A DNA stretch of 64,000 nt from Oscillospiraceae bacterium (GTDB lineage Bacteria; Bacillota; Clostridia; Oscillospirales; CAG-272). The DNA lies in contig SVTT01000005.1 in NCBI GenBank assembly GCA_015063625.1, positions 44,979-108,978 on the forward strand. Reading direction: 5' to 3'. This document shows, piece by piece, positions 3,577 through 62,361 of the stretch. Position numbers and translations under genes: made by a program. Positions within the stretch are counted from its first letter, which is position 1. Each line of letters begins with the position of its first letter. The notes below the pieces were generated by a model that had not been told where the DNA came from, searched no databases, and worked only from the letters and a program-made list of their open reading frames with translations.

Positions 3577-3651
3577 TGGGATGTCGCCAAGCGGTAAGGC
3601 ACCAGACTTTGACTCTGGCATTCGTAGGTTCAAATCCTGCCATCCCAGCCA
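3577..3651 (+). tRNA. tRNA-Gln (anticodon TTG), CCA encoded
   Basis: The cloverleaf was read by hand. Acceptor TGGGATG pairs with CATCCCA. The anticodon stem is CCAGA/TCTGG and the loop is CT-TTG-AC. The T-arm has GGTTCAAATCC. Overall it resembles bacterial tRNA-Gln. Confidence 0.93.
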
Positions 3652-4430: not shown

Positions 4431-4640
4431 ACAGAAAAAAGCACTTGCGTGAGCAAGTGCTTTTTTCAACGAAATCCGCCTTCTGCGGAAGAAATCCACC
4501 TGCGGTGGATGAAATCGCTTCGCGATGAAATCCGACTTCGTCGGGATAGGAGAGGCGGATTTTATTTCATCTGAGGCCGTAGGCTGAAGATTTCATCCGA
4601 GCATGCGAGGATTTCATCGTGCAGAGCACGATTCCATTTT
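4431..4640 (-). repeat. zipper element, copy E (word GATGAAATC(C) / (G)GATTTCATC)
   Basis: A terminator-like hairpin comes first (ACAGAAAAAAGCACTTGC-GTGA-GCAAGTGCTTTTTT, 4431-4466). GAAATC(C) then occurs at 4471, 4491, 4511 and 4527. Its spacers are hairpins: CCGCCTTCTGCGG, CCACCTGCGGTGG, TCGCTTCGCGA, CCGACTTCGTCGG. The complementary word GATTTCATC-type occurs at 4557-4571, 4589 and 4609, with a degenerate copy at 4630. Confidence 0.6.
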
Positions 4641-23050: not shown

Positions 23051-23235
23051 GAAAGTTCTCCCGAAAAAGCTTCGTTATATCAGTTTTTGCATTAAAATCA
23101 GTCCTTGTAATAAAGAAATAAAAGTGTTATAATATATATTGGATTTTTGGATTTTCGCTGCAAACACGGCAAAAATAGTATAGACAGAACGCACGGGGCA
23201 TCATACGGTGCGCCACGGTGCGTTTTTTGGAAAGG

Positions 23236-26200
23236 ATGGCAAAAATGCGGGAAAAGGATAAGCAGCGTGCTCGCGAAAAGGAGCGCGTGACCCGCCGCGG
23301 CGTGACTGCCGTTCCCGATCGCAGAGATCGGGAGCGCGTGCGCAACGCCTCTCGGCGTATGCATGAGTTTGACGACTATATGAATGACGCCCCCGAGGAC
23401 TCCCGTCGCAAGGAGCAGGAAAGGGGAGCTCCGCGCGAGGGACATGAGCCCGAGAGAGGATCCGGAGCTGAGGAAAAACGCCCTGCGCAGGGCGAGGTGC
23501 GTCGCGCCGAGGGTCGCCGTGAGAATGCCAAAAGGGTGCTGGAGCCCACCGCTGAAAAGGCACCCGTGAGTGAGGGGAATCCCGAGCGTTTTCTGCACCA
23601 GATCGTACCTTACGTGATGTTCTGGGTGGCGCTGTTTGCCGGTGTCAGCTTTTTGCTTCGCGATATTTTCAATATGGACGGCTCGGCAGGAGCCTTCGGC
23701 ACGTGGCTTGCCAACGTGCTTTGCGGTCTGCTCGGCGTCGCGGCATATCTTTTGCCTGCCATGCTTGTGGCGCTTTCACTGAAGTGGCGTCGCTTCGTCA
23801 AGGAGGGGCAGCTGGCAAAGCGTCTGATGCTTTCGTTTGCCTTCATGCTGCTGCTCTCCTCGATCATCCACGTGTTCACCGACCCCGATAACGTGCGCAA
23901 GGTCACCGCGCTCAGTGTGCTTTATGCAGGTGGTATCGCCGGAAGCGGCGGCGGTGTGCTCGGCGGCTTTTTCGGGGAATGGATCGGCTTTTTTCTGCGC
24001 AAGATCGGCACGGGACTCCTGATGATCCCACTGCTACTGATCGTGAGCATCTATCTGGTGGGACTGACACCCGAGGAGCTCTGGCAGCGTGCCGAGAGCA
24101 AATGGAGGATCATGAAGCAGCAGCGGCGCGAGAGCCGTTTGCAAAAGGAGGAGCGTGCGAGCGTCAAGCACGCCGAAAAGGAGGAAGAGCGCGCACTGCG
24201 CGAGCAGGAAAAGGAAGAAAAGCAGGAGCGTCGGGAGCAGGAAAAGAAGGAGGGGAAGGACTCCTCCGAATGGCGTGAGCCAAGACCTCTCAAGCGCTCG
24301 GGCGGAACCATGTATCGCTTCCGCGAGGATGAGCCCGACGTGGATGCCGAGCCGCCCCGACATAAGCCGCGTGAGGACCGTGACGAGGAGGTGGAGGCGC
24401 CCGAGGAGCCCCGTGAGGAGCGTACCGAACCTCGCCGCAGAAGTAACATCGATGCCGCCTTCGGTGGCGGTGTTGAGGATTACGGCAGGGATGAGCCGAT
24501 GACCGCACCCACGGGTAGCGGCAATGAGCTATTGGATATTCCCGATGACGAGCCCGAGATCACCGAGCCGAGCGAGGGTGCGAGGGCAATTTTAGACCAG
24601 GCGGGTCAGGGAGGCAACCCGGGCGACCGCATTGAAACCATTCTCAACGATATGTTTGCTACCCCGGCACCCACACCTTCGCCGCAGACGCCCAAGGAGG
24701 ACAACGCCAATTATTACGCGCCCTTTGCGCTACCTGTCCGTCCCGAGCCAAGACGCGATAAAGGGGATGCTGCAGCAGCCTCGCGTATTGTGATCACTCC
24801 CAAGGACCGGAGCGTGGCTCCTGCGGAGCCGACGGGCGAGCGCTACGGCACTGTGCCCCCCTCGGCTGTCGATGCGCCGCGTGGAGAGGAACGGCTGGGA
24901 AGCCCCGCTTCTCAGGGCGGCACCTATCAGCCCGCGGCTCGTCCCGCACCCCGTGATGAGTATGCATACGGGGAGAGAAAAAAGCCAAACGACCCTGCGG
25001 CGTACCGCTGGGATGTTCCCGCACGCCATGATGACACACCTGCGGCAGCCGAGCCGCGCTACGGCGTGACTCCTTCCACCGAGCAACCCTACCGTACGCC
25101 TGCGGCAGCCGAGCCGCGCTACGGCAGTGCCACTCCCACTGAGCAGCCCTACCGTACGCCTGCGGCAGCCGAGCCCTGCTATGGCAGTACCACTCCCACC
25201 GAGCAACCCTACCGTACGCCTGCGGCAGCCGAGCCGCGCTATGGCAGTACCACTCCCACCGAGCAGCCCTACCGTACGCCTGCGGCAGCCGAGCCGCGCT
25301 ACGGCGTGACTCCTTCCACCGAGCAGCCCTACCGTACACCTGCGGCAGCCGAGCCCCGCTATGGCGTGACTCCTCCCGCCGCAAGACCCGACGGAGATCA
25401 CACCTTCGGCTTTGCCGAGGATCCTCTTGACGGTGTTTCGGAGGTGTCGGATGTCACTGTCACGCGCGATGCACCGCAGCAACCCTACGACGACCCCGAT
25501 GTCGATACCTTCAGCGAGTTTCTTGGTGAGCTGGAGGATGACCTTGACGGGGAGGGCAACGTTTCCGAGATCGTCACACCCACGCCTGCCGTGCGTGCGA
25601 CCTACGAGCCTGTGCCTCCCCTGTCCGCGCAGACACCCTCGCGTACCGCGACCCCCTTTGCGCCGCGCGGCGAGGAGGAAGCACCTCGCTTCGCCGCTCC
25701 CACAGAGCAGCCCCGTCGCACCCCTGCGGAGGGCACGCCCCGTTATGAGAGACCTGTCCCCGCAGAGCCTGCGCGTGCCCCTGAGGCACCCCGTTACGGC
25801 ACTGCCGTTCCCGTTCTGTCCCGTACCGAGCCCGTAGAGGATAAGCCCCCCGTGCAGCCTCCTGTGATCGAGGAATATAAGTTCCCTCCGATCACTCTGC
25901 TCAACGAGGATAAAAACGAGAAGAACCGTGATTTCTATGAGGAGATCGAGGACACCAAGGAGGTTCTCCGCAGCACGCTTGCCAGCTTTAACATTCACAT
26001 TCAGGATGAGGTGGCATGCTCGCACGGACCTTCGATCACGCGCTATGAGCTTCGCCCCGTCGCGGGAACCAGCGTGCGCTCGGTAACCAACCGTATCGAC
26101 GATATCTCGCTGAATCTGGCAGCGTCGGTGCGTATCGAGGCGCCCATTCCGGGCAAGCCCGCGATCGGCATCGAGGTACCCAACAAGGTGCGGGAAACCG

Positions 26201-27396
26201 TTTATATGCGCACCATGCTGGAGTCCGAGACCTTCAAGCGATCAACCAAGCCCTTTGAGGTGCCTCTCGGTCTTGATGTCGGCGGCGGGGTACGCCTTTG
26301 CGACATCACCGCCATGCCCCACCTGCTGGTAGCGGGTACGACCGGCTCGGGTAAATCGGTTTGTATCAATTCGATCCTGGTCAGCCTGCTGTACAAGACC
26401 TCGCCCGAGGATCTGCGGCTGATCCTGATCGACCCGAAGCAGATCGAATTTGCGCCCTACGAGCATATTCCGCATCTGTATATGCCCATCGTCACCGATA
26501 TGCAGCGTGCCGCAGGCGCACTTGCCTGTGCGGTGCAGGAGATGGAGCGTCGCTTCTCGCTCATTAAGGATGTGGGTGTACGCGACATCAAGGCGTATAA
26601 CGAGGCGGTGAAGAATGACCCTGACCGTGAGCACCTGCCCCGCATCATCATCGTGATCGACGAGTTTGCCGATCTCAAGATGAGCTGCACCAATAACGAT
26701 CCCGAAAACTTTACCTGTCGTATCGCCCAGAAGGCACGTGCCGCAGGCATCCATCTGATCATCGGTACGCAGCGCCCCTCGGTGGACGTCATTACGGGTA
26801 AGCTGAAGACCAATATCGCATCCCGTATCGCGTTTATGGTCAAGCAGCAGGTCGATTCCCGTACCATTCTGGACGTCAACGGTGCAGAGTCGCTGACGGG
26901 TAAGGGTGATATGCTGTATATGCCTGCCAATTCGCAGGATAAGCAGCCCTGCCGCATTCAGGGCGCCTTCGTTTCGGACGGGGAGCTTGAGCGCGTGGTA
27001 TCCTACGTGCGCGACCATAATCCGCCCGTGCAGTATAACCGCGAGTTCATGAACCAGATCGAGATCGAGATGGCAAAGGCGGCAAATACGGGTCGTAAGA
27101 ACGGTGAGGACATTGAGGAGGAGGATGCCGATGGCAGCGAGGATCCGAAGTTCCTTGAGGCTGTCGAGCTGGCGGTCGAAACGCAGAAGATCGCGACCTC
27201 GCTTCTTCAGCGTCGCCTTGGTGTAGGCTACGGACGTGCCGCTAAGATCATTGACCGTATGGAGGATCTCGGGCTGGTCAGTGCCCCCGACGGCAATAAG
27301 GCGCGTAAGGTGCTTCCCGCCGCGCAAGGATATCTCAATCATATGGCGGCAGAGGGGGATGAGGGTGACGTCGACGATTTCGGCGATTATACCTGA
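23236..27396 (+). CDS. ftsK: DNA translocase FtsK/SpoIIIE with a very long low-complexity linker
   Basis: The N-terminus is charged, followed by 4 TM helices and a ~650-aa P/E/A/R-rich linker. The motor has Walker A GTTGSGKSV and Walker B IIIVIDEFADL, and the gamma wHTH is LLQRRLGVGYGRAAKIIDRMEDLG. The start is uncertain between ATG 23218, 23236 and 23245. Confidence 0.9.
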   Translation: MAKMREKDKQRAREKERVTRRGVTAVPDRRDRERVRNASRRMHEFDDYMNDAPEDSRRKEQERGAPREGHEPERGSGAEEKRPAQGEVRRAEGRRENAKRVLEPTAEKAPVSEGNPERFLHQIVPYVMFWVALFAGVSFLLRDIFNMDGSAGAFGTWLANVLCGLLGVAAYLLPAMLVALSLKWRRFVKEGQLAKRLMLSFAFMLLLSSIIHVFTDPDNVRKVTALSVLYAGGIAGSGGGVLGGFFGEWIGFFLRKIGTGLLMIPLLLIVSIYLVGLTPEELWQRAESKWRIMKQQRRESRLQKEERASVKHAEKEEERALREQEKEEKQERREQEKKEGKDSSEWREPRPLKRSGGTMYRFREDEPDVDAEPPRHKPREDRDEEVEAPEEPREERTEPRRRSNIDAAFGGGVEDYGRDEPMTAPTGSGNELLDIPDDEPEITEPSEGARAILDQAGQGGNPGDRIETILNDMFATPAPTPSPQTPKEDNANYYAPFALPVRPEPRRDKGDAAAASRIVITPKDRSVAPAEPTGERYGTVPPSAVDAPRGEERLGSPASQGGTYQPAARPAPRDEYAYGERKKPNDPAAYRWDVPARHDDTPAAAEPRYGVTPSTEQPYRTPAAAEPRYGSATPTEQPYRTPAAAEPCYGSTTPTEQPYRTPAAAEPRYGSTTPTEQPYRTPAAAEPRYGVTPSTEQPYRTPAAAEPRYGVTPPAARPDGDHTFGFAEDPLDGVSEVSDVTVTRDAPQQPYDDPDVDTFSEFLGELEDDLDGEGNVSEIVTPTPAVRATYEPVPPLSAQTPSRTATPFAPRGEEEAPRFAAPTEQPRRTPAEGTPRYERPVPAEPARAPEAPRYGTAVPVLSRTEPVEDKPPVQPPVIEEYKFPPITLLNEDKNEKNRDFYEEIEDTKEVLRSTLASFNIHIQDEVACSHGPSITRYELRPVAGTSVRSVTNRIDDISLNLAASVRIEAPIPGKPAIGIEVPNKVRETVYMRTMLESETFKRSTKPFEVPLGLDVGGGVRLCDITAMPHLLVAGTTGSGKSVCINSILVSLLYKTSPEDLRLILIDPKQIEFAPYEHIPHLYMPIVTDMQRAAGALACAVQEMERRFSLIKDVGVRDIKAYNEAVKNDPDREHLPRIIIVIDEFADLKMSCTNNDPENFTCRIAQKARAAGIHLIIGTQRPSVDVITGKLKTNIASRIAFMVKQQVDSRTILDVNGAESLTGKGDMLYMPANSQDKQPCRIQGAFVSDGELERVVSYVRDHNPPVQYNREFMNQIEIEMAKAANTGRKNGEDIEEEDADGSEDPKFLEAVELAVETQKIATSLLQRRLGVGYGRAAKIIDRMEDLGLVSAPDGNKARKVLPAAQGYLNHMAAEGDEGDVDDFGDYT
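25036..25380 (+). repeat. in-frame 60-bp tandem repeat (x ~5.7) inside ftsK
   Basis: The unit is ACNCCTGCGGCAGCCGAGCCNNGCTAYGGC...GAGCARCCCTACCGT, encoding TPAAAEPRYG(V/S)(T/A)(P/T)(S/P)TEQPYR. Copies start at 25036, 25096, 25156, 25216, 25276 and 25336. Confidence 0.9.
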
Positions 27397-27416
27397 CCTC
27401 AGAAGCCGTTTGAAAG

Positions 27417-27817
27417 AAAAAAGCACTTGTGGCATAGCGTGATGTCCTTAACGGACAAATCACGCTAACTAAGTTTGCCCTTGCGGGCAAGTGAAGTTTA
27501 CTTCGTAAGTGAAGTTATCCTGCGGATAGTGAAGTTTTGCCTTCGGCAAAGTGGGCAAACTTAACTTCACTGCGAGCTTTGGTGAGCAACTTCACTGTGT
27601 ATCACACAACTTCACTTTTGCGGCAGCAAAAACTTCACTGACAGAAAAAGAGCAAACATACAAGATTTTTGTCTTGCGTGTTTGCTCTTTCTGTTTGTGA
27701 TATGGGTTTGGGCTTAGCCCATAGAGTATTTGACTAGTCAAATGCGATGCTCGCACTTAGCGGTATTTTTCAATTTCTCCGCTAAGGACATCGCCCAATA
27801 GCCGCAAGTGCTTTTTT
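27417..27817. repeat. ~39-bp imperfect inverted repeat (split terminator stem) bracketing a ~325-bp hairpin-rich segment
   Basis: The left arm is AAAAAAGCACTTGTGGCATAGCGTGATGTCCTTAACGG (27417-27454). The right arm is CCGCTAAGGACATCGCCCAATAGCCGCAAGTGCTTTTTT (27779-27817). The outer 17 bp differ at one base and match the stem of the intact terminator at 4435-4466. Confidence 0.7.
27437..27694 (+). repeat. zipper element, copy A (word GTGAAGTT / AACTTCAC)
   Basis: GTGAAGTT occurs at 27491, 27509 and 27529. AACTTCAC occurs at 27563, 27588, 27608 and 27631. Every spacer is self-complementary. The central hairpin is TTTGCC-TTCG-GGCAAA. Capping hairpins lie at 27437-27465 and 27641-27694. Confidence 0.75.
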
Positions 27818-27884
27818 CAGGTCACAGGGTCACCCGCAGTCCCCCTGTATAAAAAAGGAAAAAAGTGTCTATTCTCATTTTTGA

Positions 27885-27928
27885 GGGGCGCGAAAGATCC
27901 CCCGAGAGCGCGATGCTCTCGGGGGATC
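27885..27928 (-). terminator. terminator hairpin after RNase P RNA
   Basis: Minus strand reads GATCCCCCGAGAGC-ATCGC-GCTCTCGGGGGATC followed by TTTCG. The 14-bp stem is perfect but the T-run is weak. Confidence 0.55.
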
Positions 27929-28285
27929 TGAACCTTGCCGATAAGCCGGGTTCTGTCGTGAACGGCCATCTATCTGCGCCCTGCGTCGCCGCAGGGCTTC
28001 GGGATCGCTCCCGTGCCACCCGGGGGAATACGTCGGGCAAACATCCCCCATACGGTGTTGCTTCGGATAGGGTTTACAGCAAACCTATGTTACCATAGGA
28101 GTGGGTGAGCTCTTACCTCGCCTTTCCATCCTTACCCCTCTCTGAAAGGGGCGGTTTATTTCTGTTGCACTTTCCCGGCAGTCGCCTGCGGCTGACGTTA
28201 TCAGCTATCCTGCCCTTTGAAGCCCGGACTTTCCTCACGGTAATACCTTTCGGCAACATACCGCGCGGCCGTTTGGTAAGGTTAC
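27929..28285 (-). ncRNA. rnpB: RNase P RNA, bacterial type A
   Basis: The minus strand contains GAGGAAAGTCCGGGC, AGTGCAACAGAAATAAACCGCC, GGTAAGGATGGAAAGGCGAGGTAAGAGCTCACC and AGATAGATGGCCGTTCACGACAGAACCCGGCTTATCGG. P1 pairs AACCTTACC with GGCAAGGTT. A TATAAT lies at 28292-28297 (minus). Ends are approximate. Confidence 0.93.
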
Positions 28286-28340
28286 GGGCACATTATAGCA
28301 TGCGAAGGGCGATTTGTCAAGTGAAAAGAAGGAGAGGAAT

Positions 28341-32567: not shown

Positions 32568-32663
32568 AAAGGACCTCCTTTGGCTGTAAAGCTTATCAGC
32601 TTGATTTCCTCTTGTCTATTATTATAGCGAGAGGCGGCGAATTTGTCAATGAAAAAGCACCCC

Positions 32664-32955
32664 TTGGGCGACCTACGGTAAAGCAGGTCGCCCAACTAAG
32701 TTTGCCCATTCGGGCAAGTGAAGTTTACTGCGTAAGTGAAGTTATCCTGCGGATAGTGAAGTTTTGCCTTCGGCAAAGTGGGCAAACTTAACTTCACTTG
32801 TGCGAAGCACAAACATCACTGCAAAGCAACTTCACTTTCACGTTAGTGAAAACTTCACCTATTACCTCCCGAAAAACGCAAATGTAACACACCATACTTG
32901 CAGAGCAAGAAGTGTGAAAAGGAGTACAGGCAAAATGCCCGTACTCCTTTTTGTT
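32664..32955 (+). repeat. zipper element, copy B
   Basis: GTGAAGTT occurs at 32718, 32736 and 32756. AACTTCAC occurs at 32790, 32828 and 32851, and AACATCAC at 32812. The left ~100 nt are almost identical to copy A. The capping hairpins are TTGGGCGACCT..AGGTCGCCCAA (32664-32695) and AAAAGGAGTAC..GTACTCCTTTT (32917-32951). Confidence 0.75.
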
Positions 32956-33142
32956 GTATTGGCGGTTGCCAAAACCTGCTTTATCGCAGGTCGCCGTTGC
33001 GTGGGGCTTTTGGTGTCCTGTGTTTCCGAATCGCTTTTGAGCGCTCTGCCCTTCGGGAATATTTGATCGCAATGCACCGTGCGCGAAAAAAGACCGCCCT
33101 GCCGATATTCGGCAGGGCGGTCTGCTGTAAAATGCGCTCGGA

Positions 33143-41699: not shown

Positions 41700-41810
41700 A
41701 ACCGCATAGAAATCGGGGGTGCTGCCAAACAGGGCGGCTGAGATGGGCAATGCCCAAACCCTTAAACCTGATACGGATAATGCCGGCGTAGGGAAGAGAT
41801 CGAGTATTCT
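41700..41810 (+). ncRNA. TPP (THI-box) riboswitch aptamer
   Basis: CGGGGGTGCTGCC...GGCGGCTGAGA...AACCCTTAAACCTGATACGGATAATGCCGGCGTAGGGAAG matches the THI element consensus (GGGGTGC / CTGAGA / ACCCTTTGAACCTGATCTGGATAATGCCAGCGTAGGGAA). Confidence 0.9.
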
Positions 41811-41846
41811 GTTACCGCACGGAGATTTTCGTGCGGTAATTTTATA
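41811..41846 (+). terminator. riboswitch expression-platform terminator
   Basis: TTACCGCACG-GAGATTTT-CGTGCGGTAA followed by TTTTAT, 18 nt before the thiT RBS. Confidence 0.7.
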
Positions 41847-42691: not shown

Positions 42692-42764
42692 TTCTTTCAT
42701 CGTCCTCTCTTGTCCCTGGCAAAGTGCAAGCATCGCATTTGACCCAACAAATGCAAATGGGCTA

Positions 42765-43217
42765 GGCAAGAGGGAGTGATCTGAACCCGCCCAAAAGCCC
42801 TGATTCCGATAGGGGGCGGCGCCTTCGACGACCCGTTTTTCGGCACCCTCGCGGCACGTTCGGATACGATCAAACCGGTAGGGGTCGGCGCCTTCGACGA
42901 CCCGTCTTTCGGCGCCCTCGGCGACTCATTCTTGGTTGCCGTTCGTTTGTAACGGGCTGCCGTGGGCGTTAGCCCCTACCATGTATGATATCACCCGAGC
43001 TTCGAGGGAACAGATTTTTGCGGCAGCATGGGCGGACATCTGCCACCAAAATCATCTTAAAATCAAGGCTTTGAGGGTCATCCGAGTTTTGAGAGAGCAA
43101 ATGTTTGCAGACGCAAGGGAAATTCTTGCAGTCATATGCGGATATGACAAGGGAATTCCCCGATGCGGATGCGGATATCTGCCTCTCAAAACCGAGTTCA
43201 GATCACTCCCTCTTGCC
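42765..43217. mobile_element. MITE copy 1 (453 bp) with 17-bp terminal inverted repeats, flanked by TA
   Basis: The TIRs are GGCAAGAGGGAGTGATC (42765-42781) and GATCACTCCCTCTTGCC (43201-43217), a perfect pair. TA lies at 42763-42764 and 43218-43219. There is no ORF of its own. Confidence 0.7.
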
Positions 43218-43219
43218 TA

Positions 43220-43493
43220 GGCAAGAGGGAGTGATCCAAACCCGCCCAAAAGCCCTGATTTTCAGCGCTTTCGGCGGCAAGTGCGCTTGTAAAGTCCGCA
43301 CTTGACTTCGCGCCCTTGCCACCAAAATCATCTTAAAATCAAGGCTTTGAGGGTCATTCGAGTTTTGAGAGAGCAAATATTTGCAGACGCAAGGGAAATT
43401 CTTGCAGTCATATACGGATATGACAAGGGAATTCCCCGATGCGGATGCGGATATCTGCCTCTCAAAACCGAGTTCAGATCGCTCCCTCTTGTC
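43220..43493. mobile_element. MITE copy 2 (274 bp), same family, abutting copy 1
   Basis: The TIRs are GGCAAGAGGGAGTGATC (43220-43236) and GATCGCTCCCTCTTGTC (43477-43493). TA flanks lie at 43218-43219 and 43494-43495. The 176-bp core 43318-43493 matches 43042-43217 with 5 substitutions. Confidence 0.7.
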
Positions 43494-43539
43494 TAAATTC
43501 CCTAAAGCTCTGCTTCACTTCGGGGATCCCTACGCAAGC

Positions 43540-43796
43540 ACAGAGAGCAGACACGCAAGACGCTTCGTCTTGCGTGTCTGCTCTTCTGTTAGTGATGTTT
43601 TTGCTATCGCAAAAGTGATGTTATTCGCTTCGCTCATCATGATGTTGCTCGCCAAGGCTCGCAGTGATGTGATGTTTGCCCACTGTGCCGAAGGCACAAC
43701 ATCATTCACGCAGTGAACATCACAAGGCGAAGCCGACATCACTTGCCCATAAGGGCAAACATCGTTTCGCGTGATACTCCGTTAAGAGTATCACGC
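43540..43796 (-). repeat. zipper element, copy D (word GTGATGTT / AACATCAC)
   Basis: Hairpin B is ACAGAGAGCAGACACGCAAGAC-GCTT-CGTCTTGCGTGTCTGCTCTTCTGT (43540-43589). GTGATGTT-type words lie at 43592, 43615, 43639 and 43664. AACATCA(C/T) lies at 43698, 43716 and 43735. Hairpin A is GCGTGATACTC..GAGTATCACGC (43769-43796). Confidence 0.75.
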
Positions 43797-43895
43797 TGTG
43801 CCGTCGGGTCTTTTTATGCTTTTCCCGATCGCTTTTTCTTGACAGAGCGCACAATTTGTGATATCATAATATGAGTTATAAGAAAGGCTGATGCT

Positions 43896-60192: not shown

Positions 60193-61427
60193 AAAAAACC
60201 GTGACCGTATGCCTGCTTCTTGCGTTGCTTCTGATGCTCATCCCCCAGCTTGCATCCTGCAAAAAAGGGGGAGTCACCACCCTTTACGTTTATAACTGGG
60301 GAGAGTATATCTCGGATGGCTCGGAGGGCACAATGGATGTCAATGCCGCCTTTGAGGAATGGTATTTCGACACCTATGGCGAGCGCGTCGAGGTCAATTA
60401 TTCCACCTATTCCTCCAATGAGGATATGTATGCCAAGCTGAGCAGCGGTGCGTCGGAGTACGACATCGTCATTCCGTCCGATTACATGATCGCCCGTATG
60501 ATCGAGGAGGAGCTATTAAGACCGCTTGATTTCTCCAACATCCCCAATTCGGTATATATCGACCTTGAGGCGATGTTTGGCGCCGAGGCGCCCTATTACG
60601 ATCCCACGCAGTCCTATTCGGTTCCGTACACCTACGGCACCATCGGCATCATTTATAATAAGACCATGGTGGACGAGGCGGATCTCGGCTCTTGGGATAT
60701 CATGTGGAACGAGAAGTATACGGGCAACATTCTGCAATTCAACAACTCGCGTGACGCCTTTGCCACCGCACTGTTCAAGCTTGGCTACAGTGTCAATACT
60801 GACAGCGAGGCGGAGTGGCAGGAGGCGCTGGCGCTGCTCAAGTCGCAAAAGCCCATTGTGCAGGGCTACGTCATGGATGAGATCTTCAATAAGATGGAGA
60901 ACGGCTCTGCCGCCATCGCGCCCTATTATGCGGGAGATTTCTTCACCATGTACGGGGATAATGAGGATCTCGGCTTCTTCTATCCAAGCGAGGGGACCAA
61001 CGTGTTTGTGGATGCCATGTGCATTCCCACCACCAGTAAGAACCCCGAGATCGCAGAGCGTTATATCAACTTCATGCTTTCAAAGGAGGCGGCGATCGCC
61101 AATGCGGAGTATATGTGCTACGCCTCTCCGAACCGACTTGTCACCGAGGATGCCGACTACCGCGCCGCGATGGAGGAGCTTCATCCCGACGCGATGGAGA
61201 TCCTTTACGGCACAGGAGAGATGAGGCTGGAGTTCTATGAAAATCTGCCCGAGCAGAAGCTGATGATGCTCAGTCATCTTTGGGAGGACCTGAAGATCGA
61301 AAGCCCCATCAATACCTCCATCATCGTGATGGCAGGCGTGATCGCAGGAGGGCTGTGCACTGCCTTCGTGTTCTTTGCGATACGCCGCTATCGCCGAAAA
61401 AAGCTGCTTGTAAGGCTGTGGCAATAA
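60189..61427 (+). CDS. potD: spermidine/putrescine-binding lipoprotein with an extra C-terminal TM helix
   Basis: ATG at 60189 (codon 31 of the track ORF). The lipobox is QLASC. The PotD-like core has LYVYNWGEYI and DIVIPSDYMI. The C-terminal hydrophobic segment is IIVMAGVIAGGLCTAFVFFAI, followed by RRYRRKK. Confidence 0.85.
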   Translation: MKKTVTVCLLLALLLMLIPQLASCKKGGVTTLYVYNWGEYISDGSEGTMDVNAAFEEWYFDTYGERVEVNYSTYSSNEDMYAKLSSGASEYDIVIPSDYMIARMIEEELLRPLDFSNIPNSVYIDLEAMFGAEAPYYDPTQSYSVPYTYGTIGIIYNKTMVDEADLGSWDIMWNEKYTGNILQFNNSRDAFATALFKLGYSVNTDSEAEWQEALALLKSQKPIVQGYVMDEIFNKMENGSAAIAPYYAGDFFTMYGDNEDLGFFYPSEGTNVFVDAMCIPTTSKNPEIAERYINFMLSKEAAIANAEYMCYASPNRLVTEDADYRAAMEELHPDAMEILYGTGEMRLEFYENLPEQKLMMLSHLWEDLKIESPINTSIIVMAGVIAGGLCTAFVFFAIRRYRRKKLLVRLWQ

Positions 61428-61473
61428 AAACGACCCCGTTCGGGCAAAGGATCAGCCCGAACGGGGTCTTTTC
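61426..61473 (+). terminator. intrinsic terminator after potD
   Basis: GACCCCGTTCGGGC-AAAGGATCA-GCCCGAACGGGGTC followed by TTTTC. Confidence 0.7.
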
Positions 61474-61501
61474 ATAAAGCAGGTTTTACAACCGCAAAAA
61501 C

Positions 61502-61794
61502 AAAAGGAGTACGAACATTTGTTTGTACTCTTTTTCACACGCCTTGCCTGCAAGGTATAGTGTGTTACATTATACTTTTGTTTTTTGGGTGGTAAAAGGT
61601 GAAGTTTTCGCTATCGCGAAAGTGAAGTTGCTATGCAGTGAAGTTTGTGCTGCGCACAAGTGAAGTTAAGTTTGCCCACTTTGCCGAAGGCAAAACTTCA
61701 CTATCCGCAGGATAACTTCACTTACGCAGTAAACTTCACTTGCCCCTTGGGGCAAACTTAGTTGGGGCACCTGCAATATCGCAGGTGTCCCAAC
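61502..61794 (-). repeat. zipper element, copy C (inverted orientation)
   Basis: On the plus strand, GTGAAGTT occurs at 61599, 61622, 61638 and 61660, and AACTTCAC at 61694, 61714 and 61732. Its reverse complement aligns with copy B at roughly 85-90% by eye. The capping hairpins lie at 61502-61535 and 61761-61794. Confidence 0.75.
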
Positions 61795-61803
61795 GGGGTT
61801 CCT

Positions 61804-62361
61804 TCATTTCAAAAACTGCCTGGCAAAAAGAGAGGCGGTCAGAACGGTCAGCGCAAGATTTTGACCGAAGCGCAGAAGCATGCAGGAGGATAGGGCGAAC
61901 AGGAGGAGCAGCGTGAGGTAGGTGGTCACGGAAAGGATCTCTTCAGCGACCGTGATCCCAAAGAGGCGCGCCAGCAGGCAGTAAAGGATGCGTCCTCCGT
62001 CAAAGCCGGCAATGGGTGCACTGTTAAACAGTGCAAATGAGAGCGTGGCGGTGAGGACAAGACGGGCAAAGGGGAACGCATGGGGCAGTAGAAGCAGCCC
62101 GAGCAGGAGGGAAAAGGCGGGGCCTGCCGCCGCCAGCAGCAGCTCTGCACGGTAGGATGGGATCTGGGCGGCGGGATAGATCCTTGCGCCAAAGAGATCC
62201 AATTCAATGGAGCGTAGGCGGATCGAGAGCAGCCTTGCCGCCAGTAGATGACCGCACTCATGGAATAGGGCGGCAAGCGTTGCGGCAAGGAAGAGCTGCT
62301 TTTGCGTGATCGCCATGACAGCGTAAAATAAAACGGTTTCGGGAGAAATTCTGATCTTCAT
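61804..62361 (-). CDS. M50-family (site-2 protease type) membrane metalloprotease, short form
   Basis: ATG at 62361 inside track ORF 61804..62703, giving 185 aa. The HExxH motif is within ALFHECGHLLAA. The second motif, NSAPIAGFDGG, is the NxxPxxxxDG type. It has 5 TM. The rest of the track ORF is antisense to tRNA-Leu. Confidence 0.75.
   Translation of the reverse strand: MKIRISPETVLFYAVMAITQKQLFLAATLAALFHECGHLLAARLLSIRLRSIELDLFGARIYPAAQIPSYRAELLLAAAGPAFSLLLGLLLLPHAFPFARLVLTATLSFALFNSAPIAGFDGGRILYCLLARLFGITVAEEILSVTTYLTLLLLFALSSCMLLRFGQNLALTVLTASLFARQFLK

What the first reader, a model, noticed from the sequence alone, without database searches (positions are those of the whole stretch)
27417..27817. 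A terminator stem split by ~365 bp: nested insertion into a hairpin loop or an inverted-repeat-bounded cassette
AAAAAAGCACTTGTGGC (27417-27433) and GCCGCAAGTGCTTTTTT (27801-27817) are complementary with one mismatch. They are essentially the two halves of the intact terminator seen at 4435-4466 (AAAAAAGCACTTGC-GTGA-GCAAGTGCTTTTTT). The complementarity continues inward imperfectly, CGTGATGTCCTTAACGG against CCGCTAAGGACATCGCCC, giving a ~39-bp inverted repeat. Between the arms lie zipper copy A and three more hairpins or palindromes. The simplest reading is that the ftsK/rnpB bidirectional terminator was the insertion target, so the elements prefer terminator loops. The alternative is an IR-flanked invertible or excisable segment adjacent to rnpB.
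Basis: partly seen in the sequence, partly recalled or inferred. Interest (0 to 1): 0.55.

Follow-up and report, generated by a model that had tools for sequence, protein, structure and literature searches.

The report
Transposon inserted into a terminator hairpin loop
The two matching half-sequences are the arms of the terminator hairpin between ftsK and the RNase P RNA gene, split at its tip by a 362-bp non-coding mobile element from a family that inserts at the tips of terminator hairpins in many gut Clostridia.

Summary

**What the ~39-45 nt inverted repeat is made of**
- The outer 18 nt (27416-27433 and 27801-27818) are the two arms of a bidirectional intrinsic terminator. It lies 20 nt after the ftsK stop codon.
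- The inner ~25 nt are the terminal inverted repeats of a 362-bp element (27436-27797). This element is flanked by a 2-bp duplication, AT.

**Evidence from the wider family**
- I defined both ends in 27 copies, taken from many uncultured gut Clostridia.
- Outer arms differ at every locus.
- Rejoined flanks fold at a mean of -17.6 kcal/mol, against -8.0 for mismatched pairs.
- In 23 of 27 copies the insertion point lies in the hairpin loop.
- In 18 of 27 copies there is a 2-nt direct repeat at the junctions.
- One copy has an exact filled/empty pair: an intact terminator in two other assemblies, and a 311-nt insertion with the duplication CA in the filled one.
- A relative with the same gene order as this window has an uninterrupted hairpin at the ftsK/rnpB site.

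**The alternative reading**
Nothing supports an invertible cassette. Five assemblies are identical in the same orientation, and no recombinase lies within 8 kb.

**The element itself**
It contains the Rfam Gut-1 motif (the "zipper") and an internal terminator-like hairpin of its own. I did not find the transposase that moves it.

The parts
27394..27396 (+). ftsK stop codon (TGA). The terminator's left arm begins 20 nt downstream.
   Evidence: ORF 23218-27396. Pfam domains FtsK_4TM, FtsK_alpha, FtsK_SpoIIIE and FtsK_gamma.
27416..27433 (.). Left arm of the split bidirectional intrinsic terminator: an A-run followed by GCACTTGTGGC.
   Evidence: Inverted repeat I4. The arm sequence is specific to this locus, unlike the element inside it.
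27434..27435 (.). Target-site duplication, copy 1 (AT). It was originally part of the terminator loop ATA.
   Evidence: AT on both sides of the element. 18 of 27 family copies show a matching 2-nt repeat, against 5.1 expected.
27436..27797 (+). 362-bp non-autonomous mobile element of the MITE type, subfamily 'type 1'. Its ends read AGCGTGATG...ACATCGCCCA.
   Evidence: Aligns end to end with 11 copies from other genomes at 82% mean identity.
27436..27466 (+). Left terminal inverted repeat, which is itself a hairpin (AGCGTGATGTCC-TTAAC-GGACAAATCACGCT).
   Evidence: Conserved with compensatory changes in the family (pairs 1-13/18-31). It pairs with the right end (I1).
27466..27540 (+). Rfam Gut-1 (RF01706) match. 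This is the 5' half of the 'zipper', which as a whole spans about 27467-27640.
   Evidence: 55.7 bits against a gathering score of 50. The words GTGAAGTT and AACTTCAC pair in the consensus fold, and the A/T swap relative to other copies is compensated.
27645..27700 (.). Internal terminator-like hairpin of the element: an A-run, a 17-19-bp stem, then TTTCTGTTTG. On the opposite strand it is followed by TTTTTCTG.
   Evidence: I5. Conserved with compensatory stem variants (pairs 237-254/264-282). The equivalent hairpin in type 2 is called terminator-like by the scan.
27728..27743 (.). Perfect 16-nt palindrome ATTTGACTAGTCAAAT inside the element. It is a conserved hairpin whose apex covaries.
   Evidence: self-match 27743-27728. 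pairs 319-326/331-338.
27773..27797 (+). Right terminal inverted repeat (…TTCTCCGCTAAGGACATCGCCCA).
   Evidence: I1. Conserved right end CTCCGCTAAGGACATCACCC across the family.
27798..27799 (.). Target-site duplication, copy 2 (AT). It is followed by A at 27800, the remainder of the original loop.
27801..27818 (.). Right arm of the split terminator: GCCGCAAGTGC followed by a T-run.
   Evidence: I4. The rejoined flanks fold into an 18-pair hairpin with loop ATA at -33.7 kcal/mol.
27926..28284 (-). rnpB (RNase P RNA, class A), convergent with ftsK. It has its own 3' hairpin at 27895-27929.
   Evidence: Rfam RF00010, 245.5 bits. I6.
32666..32997 (+). Family copy B (type 2b). It lies in a weaker A-run/T-run hairpin with arms at 32651-32665 and 32998-33013.
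61474..61791 (-). Family copy C (type 2b). Its right end is truncated by about 13 nt, and it lies next to an intact terminator at 61426-61473.
43535..43797 (-). Family copy D (type 1, with zipper word GTGATGT). Its right end is missing and replaced by other repeats, and it has no partner arm.

Best explanation
The ancestral sequence was a single bidirectional intrinsic terminator shared by the convergent ftsK and rnpB genes: GAAAAAAGCACTTGTGGC-ATA-GCCGCAAGTGCTTTTTTC. A 362-bp non-autonomous transposable element inserted at the tip of that hairpin and duplicated 2 bp of the loop (AT). This pushed the two stem halves 367 nt apart.

It also carries a rod-like 'zipper' of paired 8-nt words alternating with mini-hairpins, whose 5' half is the Rfam Gut-1 motif. 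Finally, it has an internal hairpin that looks like a bidirectional terminator.

The family as a whole targets the apex of terminator-type hairpins whose sequences are otherwise unrelated.

Shown here: the insertion, its boundaries, the 2-bp duplication and the preference for hairpin apexes.

Inferred only:
- A transposase supplied in trans makes a 2-bp staggered cut at the centre of symmetry of the target, recognising either symmetry in duplex DNA or an extruded hairpin.
- Landing in a terminator loop while carrying a replacement terminator makes insertions nearly harmless, which would explain the high copy number.
For: **Locus-specific arms.** In 58 full copies the mean inverted-repeat score between flanks is 25.9, against 18.9 and 17.3 for the direct and reverse-only controls. 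The best ~30 copies have unrelated outer arms, each with an A-run on the left and a T-run on the right.

**Rejoined flanks and duplication.** For the 27 copies with both ends defined, rejoined flanks fold at a mean of -17.6 kcal/mol, against -8.0 (sd 3.9) for permuted left/right pairs. A 2-nt direct repeat is present in 18 of 27, against 5.1 expected, and no permutation in 5000 reaches 18. Ten of the matched repeats are non-palindromic (TT, CA, CT), so they are not a by-product of the hairpin's symmetry.

**Insertion position.** The insertion point lies in the terminal hairpin loop in 23 of 27 copies.

**Exact filled/empty pair.** L021 carries the element. L128 and L129 encode the identical neighbouring protein and have an intact AAGGCACCTCCAAGGGGGTGCCTTTTTT. 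The only difference is one 311-nt gap, equal to the 309-bp element plus the CA duplication.

**A type 1 example.** L098's left junction falls in the loop of a hairpin that is intact in L135, L136 and L137.

**This site in a relative.** L124 has the gene order ftsK - rnpB - membrane protein - Bac_transf. There ftsK's stop codon is followed directly by the intact hairpin AAAAAAAGCACCCGCAAGC-TGAAT-GCTTGCGGGTGCTT. The spacer is 445 nt, against 945 nt in the window.

**Position relative to genes.** 26 of 27 copies have an ORF of at least 90 codons ending within 200 nt and facing the element; 19 of 27 have one on both sides.

**Other subfamilies.** Elements with other zipper words also sit in split terminators: L079 and L190.

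**A real multi-copy element.** The window itself holds 4 copies in 64 kb.
Against: No transposase or autonomous copy was found, so the enzymology is inferred from the 2-bp duplication alone.

No exact empty site exists for copy A itself. All 5 assemblies of this strain that cover the spacer are filled, and the metagenome scan for the rejoined hairpin found nothing. The closest relative with an intact hairpin is distant, at 42% identity in the neighbouring protein.

Nine of 27 copies lack a matching dinucleotide, and 4 of 27 are not in a loop.

Some copies show a different signature: a direct duplication of the left arm (window copy C, 14 nt; L037, 39 nt) or of whole hairpins (L014, L110). The simple model does not explain these.

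The ORF test uses stop-to-stop ORFs in a GC-rich genome and will include some spurious ORFs.
Confidence: 0.88

Rival explanations
1. The segment is an invertible or excisable cassette. The 18-45-nt inverted repeats would be recombination sites for a site-specific recombinase that flips or removes the segment next to rnpB.
For: Inverted repeats bracketing a few hundred bp are the anatomy of DNA invertons. Within the family, subfamily 2b has its two end sequences swapped relative to the zipper when compared with 2a. This shows that an internal inversion happened at least once in evolution.
Against: Five assemblies from five samples are 100% identical over 700 nt in one orientation. No recombinase or invertase domain lies within +/-8 kb (and the gene table). 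The outer arms are fully explained as halves of a pre-existing terminator. The arms differ at every locus, which no single recombinase site would do.
Confidence: 0.03
2. The whole ~400-nt unit, arms included, is a structured non-coding RNA gene: an extended Gut-1 RNA. Its long closing helix would double as its terminator, and the arms would differ between copies because of compensatory evolution.
For: The fold is extremely stable (z = -12.2) and is closed by the arms. Fifteen base pairs show compensatory changes. Gut-1 was proposed as a non-coding RNA (PMC2864571).
Against: The arms are unrelated in sequence and length between copies whose interiors are 80-95% identical, which compensatory drift cannot produce. 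Empty alleles contain the complete hairpin without the interior. No promoter-like site lies inside the element. The interior may still act as RNA, but that does not explain the arms.
Confidence: 0.05
3. The element does insert into terminator tips, but not by a classical DDE transposase. Alternatives include a single-strand-DNA hairpin-recognising enzyme of the HUH or integron-integrase type, a recombinase with a 2-bp crossover, or capture at hairpin-induced breaks.
For: The targets share architecture but not sequence, which suits recognition of a folded strand. Type 2 flanks often resemble the element's joined ends (CCC-NN-ACGG in L008 and L026). Anomalous long duplications of arms suggest replication or template-switch events. 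No transposase was found.
Against: The 2-nt flanking repeats vary in sequence (AT, TT, TA, GC, CA, CT). That fits a staggered cut plus repair better than a fixed crossover dinucleotide. From established knowledge, IS200/IS605-type and REP-associated (RAYT) mechanisms leave no duplication. The element has classical terminal inverted repeats.
Confidence: 0.1

Closest known systems
Bacterial MITEs (Correia elements of Neisseria; RUP, BOX and SPRITE of Streptococcus pneumoniae; ERIC; QMITEs of Coxiella). Review: PMC10969869.
   Same: Small (about 330-380 bp) and non-coding, with terminal inverted repeats and a short target duplication. They are intergenic, highly self-complementary and present in many copies per genome, and their transcripts fold into stable stem-loops.
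   Different: The target is the apex of intrinsic-terminator hairpins of unrelated sequence, rather than a sequence such as TA or AT-rich DNA. The duplication is 2 bp of variable sequence. The element carries a 'zipper' of covarying words and its own terminator-like hairpin. No parent insertion sequence is known. The MITE review does not list terminator-loop targeting.
Insertion sequences that target REP palindromes: IS1397/ISKpn1, and the IS110-family members ISPpu9, ISPpu10 and ISPa11 (PMC1525189, PMC12288879).
   Same: They insert into an extragenic palindrome or hairpin rather than into genes.
   Different: REPs are families of repeats related in sequence, so that targeting can be sequence-specific. 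Here every target hairpin has a different sequence. Those elements are autonomous; this one is not. IS110-type elements have no classical terminal inverted repeats (from memory, not tested here).
Bacterial class C group II introns, which home to intrinsic terminators (from established knowledge, not tested here).
   Same: A mobile element that uses terminator stem-loops as landing sites, probably because they are harmless locations.
   Different: Those introns insert just downstream of the hairpin by reverse splicing and encode a reverse transcriptase. This element sits inside the loop, has terminal inverted repeats and a 2-bp duplication, and has no intron domains or ORF.
Rfam Gut-1 RNA (RF01706; Weinberg et al. 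2010, PMC2864571).
   Same: 27466-27540 matches the model over its full length, above the curated gathering score. It shows the same three hairpins separated by GUGAAxU words.
   Different: Gut-1 was described as a free-standing candidate non-coding RNA found only in human-gut metagenomes. Here it is the 5' half of a longer paired module inside a mobile element, found in ruminant and human gut Clostridia.
Phase-variable DNA invertons.
   Same: Inverted repeats bracket a segment of a few hundred bp next to a gene.
   Different: There is no recombinase nearby and no orientation variants in assemblies. The repeats are explained as the halves of a split hairpin plus the element's own ends.

Membership tests
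Intrinsic (Rho-independent) bidirectional terminator (the outer arms, once rejoined) | A GC-rich stem with a short loop, followed by a T-run and preceded by an A-run. | tested here: met
   The rejoined flanks give an 11-bp GC-rich stem with one G.T pair, the loop ATA, A6 upstream and T6 downstream. With the A/T pairs there are 18 contiguous pairs at -33.7 kcal/mol.
Intrinsic (Rho-independent) bidirectional terminator (the outer arms, once rejoined) | Position just downstream of the 3' ends of genes. | tested here: met
   The left arm begins 20 nt after the ftsK stop codon, and rnpB converges from the other side. The relative L124 has an intact hairpin at the same place.
Intrinsic (Rho-independent) bidirectional terminator (the outer arms, once rejoined) | It actually terminates transcription. 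| not testable with these tools
   This needs Term-seq, RNA 3'-end mapping or in vitro transcription.
MITE / non-autonomous DNA transposon | Small, with no coding capacity, and many dispersed copies. | tested here: met
   362 bp. The window holds 4 copies.
MITE / non-autonomous DNA transposon | Terminal inverted repeats. | tested here: met
   27434-27460 and 27773-27799 are 81% complementary. These ends are conserved in the family.
MITE / non-autonomous DNA transposon | Target-site duplication. | tested here: met
   2 nt: AT at copy A. 18 of 27 copies match, against 5.1 expected. CA is confirmed against an empty allele.
MITE / non-autonomous DNA transposon | Presence/absence polymorphism (filled and empty sites). 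| tested here: met
   L021 is filled and L128 and L129 are empty. L098 compared with L135-L137 is a partial case. No empty allele was found for copy A itself.
MITE / non-autonomous DNA transposon | A cognate autonomous element or transposase with the same ends. | tested here: inconclusive
   None was found among 113 genome loci or in a metagenome scan using an end-sequence pattern. Whole genomes could not be searched.
Rfam Gut-1 (RF01706) | A covariance-model score at or above the curated gathering score, over the full model. | tested here: met
   55.7 bits against 50, model positions 1-77 of 77. Copies B and C also pass. Copy D, which has the word GTGATGT, does not.
DNA inverton / invertible promoter | Both orientations present in the population. 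| tested here: not met
   Five assemblies are identical in one orientation. Only assemblies were available, not reads.
DNA inverton / invertible promoter | An invertase or recombinase encoded nearby. | tested here: not met
   Pfam scan of 8 ORFs within +/-8 kb found only FtsK, Bac_transf and PPDK domains, or no domain.

The most novel reading that the evidence does not exclude
Targeting may be purely structural. An as-yet-unknown enzyme, or the element's own folded zipper strand acting as a cofactor, would recognise the tip of any terminator hairpin in extruded or single-stranded DNA. In that case Gut-1 would not be a cellular small RNA but the functional core of a 'terminator-hopping' element that swaps native terminators for its own. 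This would be a new target-selection principle for prokaryotic transposons.
Probability: 0.15. Interest if true: 0.8.

Novelty: new variant of a known kind. Interest (0 to 1): 0.55.

Why it matters
This result explains a puzzling long-range inverted repeat next to two essential genes as ordinary transposition rather than a regulatory switch.

It reassigns the orphan Rfam motif Gut-1, unexplained since 2010, to the interior of a mobile element.

It documents a widespread family in uncultured gut Clostridia and Oscillospiraceae. The family's insertion sites share architecture (the tip of a terminator hairpin) but not sequence.

The result has practical uses:
- annotating 3' untranslated regions and terminators in these genomes;
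- understanding why their assemblies break at these repeats;
- providing a natural example of structure-directed, low-harm insertion once the enzyme is found.

Tried and rejected
**Invertible cassette.** Rejected. Five assemblies are identical and there is no recombinase nearby.

**Exact empty allele of copy A.** Not found. The exact-protein look-up returned 18 contigs of the same strain. All those that cover the spacer are filled. The nearest homologues of the 271-aa neighbouring protein are at most 47% identical. The metagenome scan for the rejoined hairpin returned 0 hits.

**The hairpin at 4435-4466 as the 'intact version' of the arms.** Rejected. It shares only the A-run plus GCACTTG, and a different zipper family lies beside that hairpin rather than in it.

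**Search for the autonomous partner.**
- A scan for end-sequence motifs across all fetched loci found only the known copies, which read from either strand.
- The metagenome scan with GNGTGATNNNCTTANCGGAGNBNV returned 120 mostly chance hits and only one further MITE, L190.
- L037 looked promising but is another zipper variant with a 39-nt duplication.

**Rfam.** Below-threshold matches of the internal hairpin to plant microRNA families are chance hits to a long hairpin.

**Block-shuffle control for the split-terminator scan.** Discarded. Shuffling itself separates hairpin halves and so creates false positives.

**Literature.** Six searches found no paper on Gut-1 beyond Weinberg et al. 2010, and none describing MITEs that target terminator loops.

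Full report
**The observation.** The repeat finder reports arms at 27416-27433 and 27801-27818: 18 nt, 94% complementary, 367 nt apart. A second, inner pair lies at 27434-27460 and 27773-27799: 27 nt, 81% complementary. The single mismatch in the outer arms is a G.T wobble.

ftsK (ORF 23218-27396, Pfam FtsK domains) ends 20 nt before the left arm. rnpB lies on the opposite strand at 27926-28284 (Rfam RF00010, 245.5 bits). Between the arms, 27466-27540 matches Rfam Gut-1 (RF01706) at 55.7 bits against a gathering score of 50.

Folded as RNA, 27410-27825 gives -179.5 kcal/mol against -111.0 +/- 5.6 for shuffles (z = -12.2). The outer arms form the closing helix, and DNA parameters give the same picture.

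**A repeat family.** BLAST of the region against the window finds three more copies: B at about 32666-32997 (+), C at about 61474-61791 (-) and D at about 43535-43797 (-). A and D share one kind of left hairpin, AGCGTGAT..TTAACGG..ATCACGC. B and C share another, GGGCGACCT..AGGTCGCCC. The zipper words are GTGAAGTT/AACTTCAC in A, B and C but GTGATGT/ACATCAC in D, and both halves change together.

All come from uncultured Clostridia, Oscillospiraceae or Acutalibacteraceae genomes assembled from sheep, goat, deer, buffalo and human gut samples. Many matches sit at contig ends, as expected for a multi-copy repeat.

**What the inverted repeat is made of.** I took 58 copies with enough flanking sequence and aligned the reverse complement of each left flank to its own right flank. 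The mean score was 25.9, against 18.9 (direct) and 17.3 (reverse-only) for the controls. Copy A scored 55.

The best ~30 copies all show the same two-layer anatomy. The inner layer is conserved across the family and forms the element's terminal inverted repeats:
- type 1: AGCGTGATnCTCTTAACGGAG ... CTCCGCTAAGGACATCACCC
- type 2: ACGGCGACCTGCGATAAAGCAG ... CTGCTTTACGGTAGGTACCC

The outer layer of 8-19 nt differs at every locus. It always has an A-run on the left and a T-run on the right. CGTGATGTCCTTAACGG / CCGCTAAGGACATCGCCC belongs to the element, and AAAAAAGCACTTGTGGC / GCCGCAAGTGCTTTTTT belongs to the locus.

**Rejoining the flanks.** In 27 copies both ends could be placed by alignment to the consensus ends.
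- Rejoined flanks fold at a mean of -17.6 kcal/mol, against -8.0 (sd 3.9) when left and right flanks of different copies are paired.
- The insertion point lies in the terminal loop of the predicted hairpin in 23 of 27.
- The two bases before the element equal the two bases after it in 18 of 27, against 5.1 expected from permutation, and no permutation in 5000 reaches 18. The repeats are AT, TT, TA, GC, CA and CT. Ten of the matches are non-palindromic, so they are not a by-product of the hairpin's symmetry.
- 26 of 27 copies have an ORF of at least 90 codons ending within 200 nt and pointing at the element, and 19 of 27 have one on both sides. This fits terminators, often between convergent genes. 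Stop-to-stop ORFs in a GC-rich genome include some false ones.

For copy A the result is: element 27436-27797 (362 bp), AT at 27434-27435 and again at 27798-27799. The ancestral hairpin was GAAAAAAGCACTTGTGGC-ATA-GCCGCAAGTGCTTTTTTC, with 18 contiguous pairs including the A/T runs, at -33.7 kcal/mol.

**Filled and empty sites.** Copy L021 comes from a human-gut genome and lies just after a sugar-phosphate isomerase gene. Two other assemblies, L128 and L129, encode the identical protein. At that position they carry an intact hairpin...TTCCAAGGCACCTCCAAGGGGGTGCCTTTTTTGCACC.... L021 reads ...GGCACCTC-CA-[ACGGCGACC...GGTAGGTGCCC]-CA-AGGGGGTGCC.... The three-way alignment shows one 311-nt gap, equal to the 309-bp element plus the 2-bp duplication, and otherwise a single substitution. 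The boundaries and duplication had already been predicted.

For a type 1 copy (L098), relatives whose neighbouring protein is 97%, 86% and 79% identical carry an intact AAAAAATGCCTCGGA-GCTTTA-TCCGAGGCATTTTTT right after the same stop codon. L098's left junction is ...GCCTCGGAGCTT|AGCGTG, inside that loop. Its right flank is not orthologous, so this is only half an empty site.

For copy A, no empty allele exists in the data. All five contigs of this strain that cover the spacer are 100% identical over 700 nt. The metagenome scan for the rejoined hairpin found nothing.

The nearest relative with the same gene order (ftsK - rnpB - membrane protein - 213 aa - Bac_transf) is L124. There an uninterrupted AAAAAAAGCACCCGCAAGC-TGAAT-GCTTGCGGGTGCTT lies directly between the ftsK stop codon and the 3' end of rnpB. 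The spacer is 445 nt instead of 945 nt.

**The element's interior.** Twelve type 1 copies from different genomes align end to end at 82% mean identity. The consensus fold has 107 pairs, 15 of them with compensatory changes. The zipper words pair with their complements, and copy A's A/T swap is compensated at all three word pairs. The left hairpin, the long post-zipper hairpin and the ATTTGAC..GTCAAAT hairpin all covary.

Both types carry an internal hairpin with the shape A-run, stem, T-rich tail. In type 2 the scan calls it terminator-like, with 17 pairs. In copy A it is 27645-27700.

Elements with the same ends but other zipper words also sit in split terminators, with AT duplicated in L190. 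These are L079 (GCGATAT/ATATCGC) and L190 (GTGATATT/AATATCAC).

No promoter-like site lies inside the element.

**Mechanism.**
- Shown: a discrete element with fixed ends, a 2-bp duplication of variable sequence, and a strong preference for the apex of A-run/T-run hairpins that share no sequence.
- Inferred: mobilisation in trans by a transposase that makes a 2-bp staggered cut at the target's centre of symmetry.
- Also inferred: low cost of insertion, because the native terminator is replaced by a structure that brings the arms back together and contains its own terminator-like hairpin.

I could not identify the enzyme. From memory, IS30-family and some IS5-family transposases make 2-3-bp duplications, and IS30 favours palindromic hot spots. 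That is a lead, not a result. Mechanisms with a fixed crossover dinucleotide, or with no duplication at all, fit the variable repeats less well.

**Rivals.**
- An inverton is not supported: there is one orientation in five assemblies, no recombinase within +/-8 kb, and arms that differ at every locus.
- A large RNA gene whose closing helix covaries is excluded as an explanation of the arms by the empty alleles. The interior may still have an RNA-level role.

**Comparison with known systems.** By every testable criterion except a known parent transposase, this is a MITE. Its target choice resembles the insertion sequences that land in REP palindromes (PMC1525189). In spirit it also resembles class C group II introns, which home to terminators. 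It differs from the first in that the targets are unrelated in sequence. It differs from the second in inserting into the loop, with terminal inverted repeats and a duplication.

Gut-1 is known only as an orphan candidate non-coding RNA from human-gut metagenomes (PMC2864571). Here it is part of a mobile element. A recent MITE review does not mention terminator-loop targeting, and my searches found no such report. The library is incomplete, so prior description cannot be excluded.

**Verdict.** The inverton alternative is not supported. I rate it a new variant of a known kind, of moderate interest.

Noticed in passing
window 4468-4640: A second zipper family, with the word (T)GAAATC and its complement GATTTCA separated by mini-hairpins. 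It lies immediately beside, not inside, the intact bidirectional hairpin at 4435-4466. It did not reach the Gut-1 gathering score.
   Followed up: partly
window 61426-61810 (copy C); L037 5840-6311: Copy C lacks the last ~13 nt of its right end. It is flanked by a 14-nt direct repeat of the left arm of the neighbouring terminator (GAAGGAACCCCGTT / GAAAAGACCCCGTT), and that terminator is intact. L037 shows the same pattern with a 39-nt direct repeat that includes the end of the gene. The simple loop-insertion model does not explain this.
   Followed up: partly
L014 1424-1678; L110 4642-4756 and 936-1046: Whole terminator hairpins of 34-36 nt are present as direct duplicates flanking inserts of about 60-220 nt. 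This may be a related but distinct insertion or duplication process at terminators.
   Followed up: no
window 32666-32997 (copy B) compared with L008, L026, L047 and similar copies: In subfamily 2b (B, C, L017, L086) the two end sequences are swapped relative to the zipper when compared with subfamily 2a. B's right end read in reverse complement equals the 2a left-end consensus exactly. This implies an ancient inversion of the interior between the terminal repeats.
   Followed up: partly
window 42764-42790, 43480-43506 (-) and 27915-27935: A short motif, GGGAG(C/T)GATCTGAAC, recurs at two intergenic sites, one of which replaces the missing right end of copy D. It resembles the sequence at the 3' hairpin of rnpB (GGGGGATCTGAACC). 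In addition, 42719-42767 is 78% identical to 27712-27761 of copy A in reverse orientation.
   Followed up: no
L098 1490-2040 compared with L135-L137: Downstream of the element, L098 has a different gene (174 aa) from its relatives (phosphofructokinase), and its right arm pairs imperfectly with the left. This may be a rearrangement by recombination between two copies of the element.
   Followed up: no
window 28292-28320 (-) and 32621-32649 (-): Two perfect 12-of-12 sigma-70-type promoter matches (TTGACA, 17 nt, TATAAT). One lies directly upstream of rnpB. The other abuts the left arm of copy B, upstream of the 566-aa gene.
   Followed up: no
window 41705-41812 and 3577-3648: A TPP riboswitch (72.5 bits) and a tRNA gene. 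Neither is related to the finding.
   Followed up: no
L021 3936-3956 (-): After insertion, the element's right end (AGGTGCCCC) pairs with the right terminator arm (GGGGTGCCT) and its T-run. This recreates a 9-pair terminator-like hairpin at the junction. It may be coincidental to this target.
   Followed up: no
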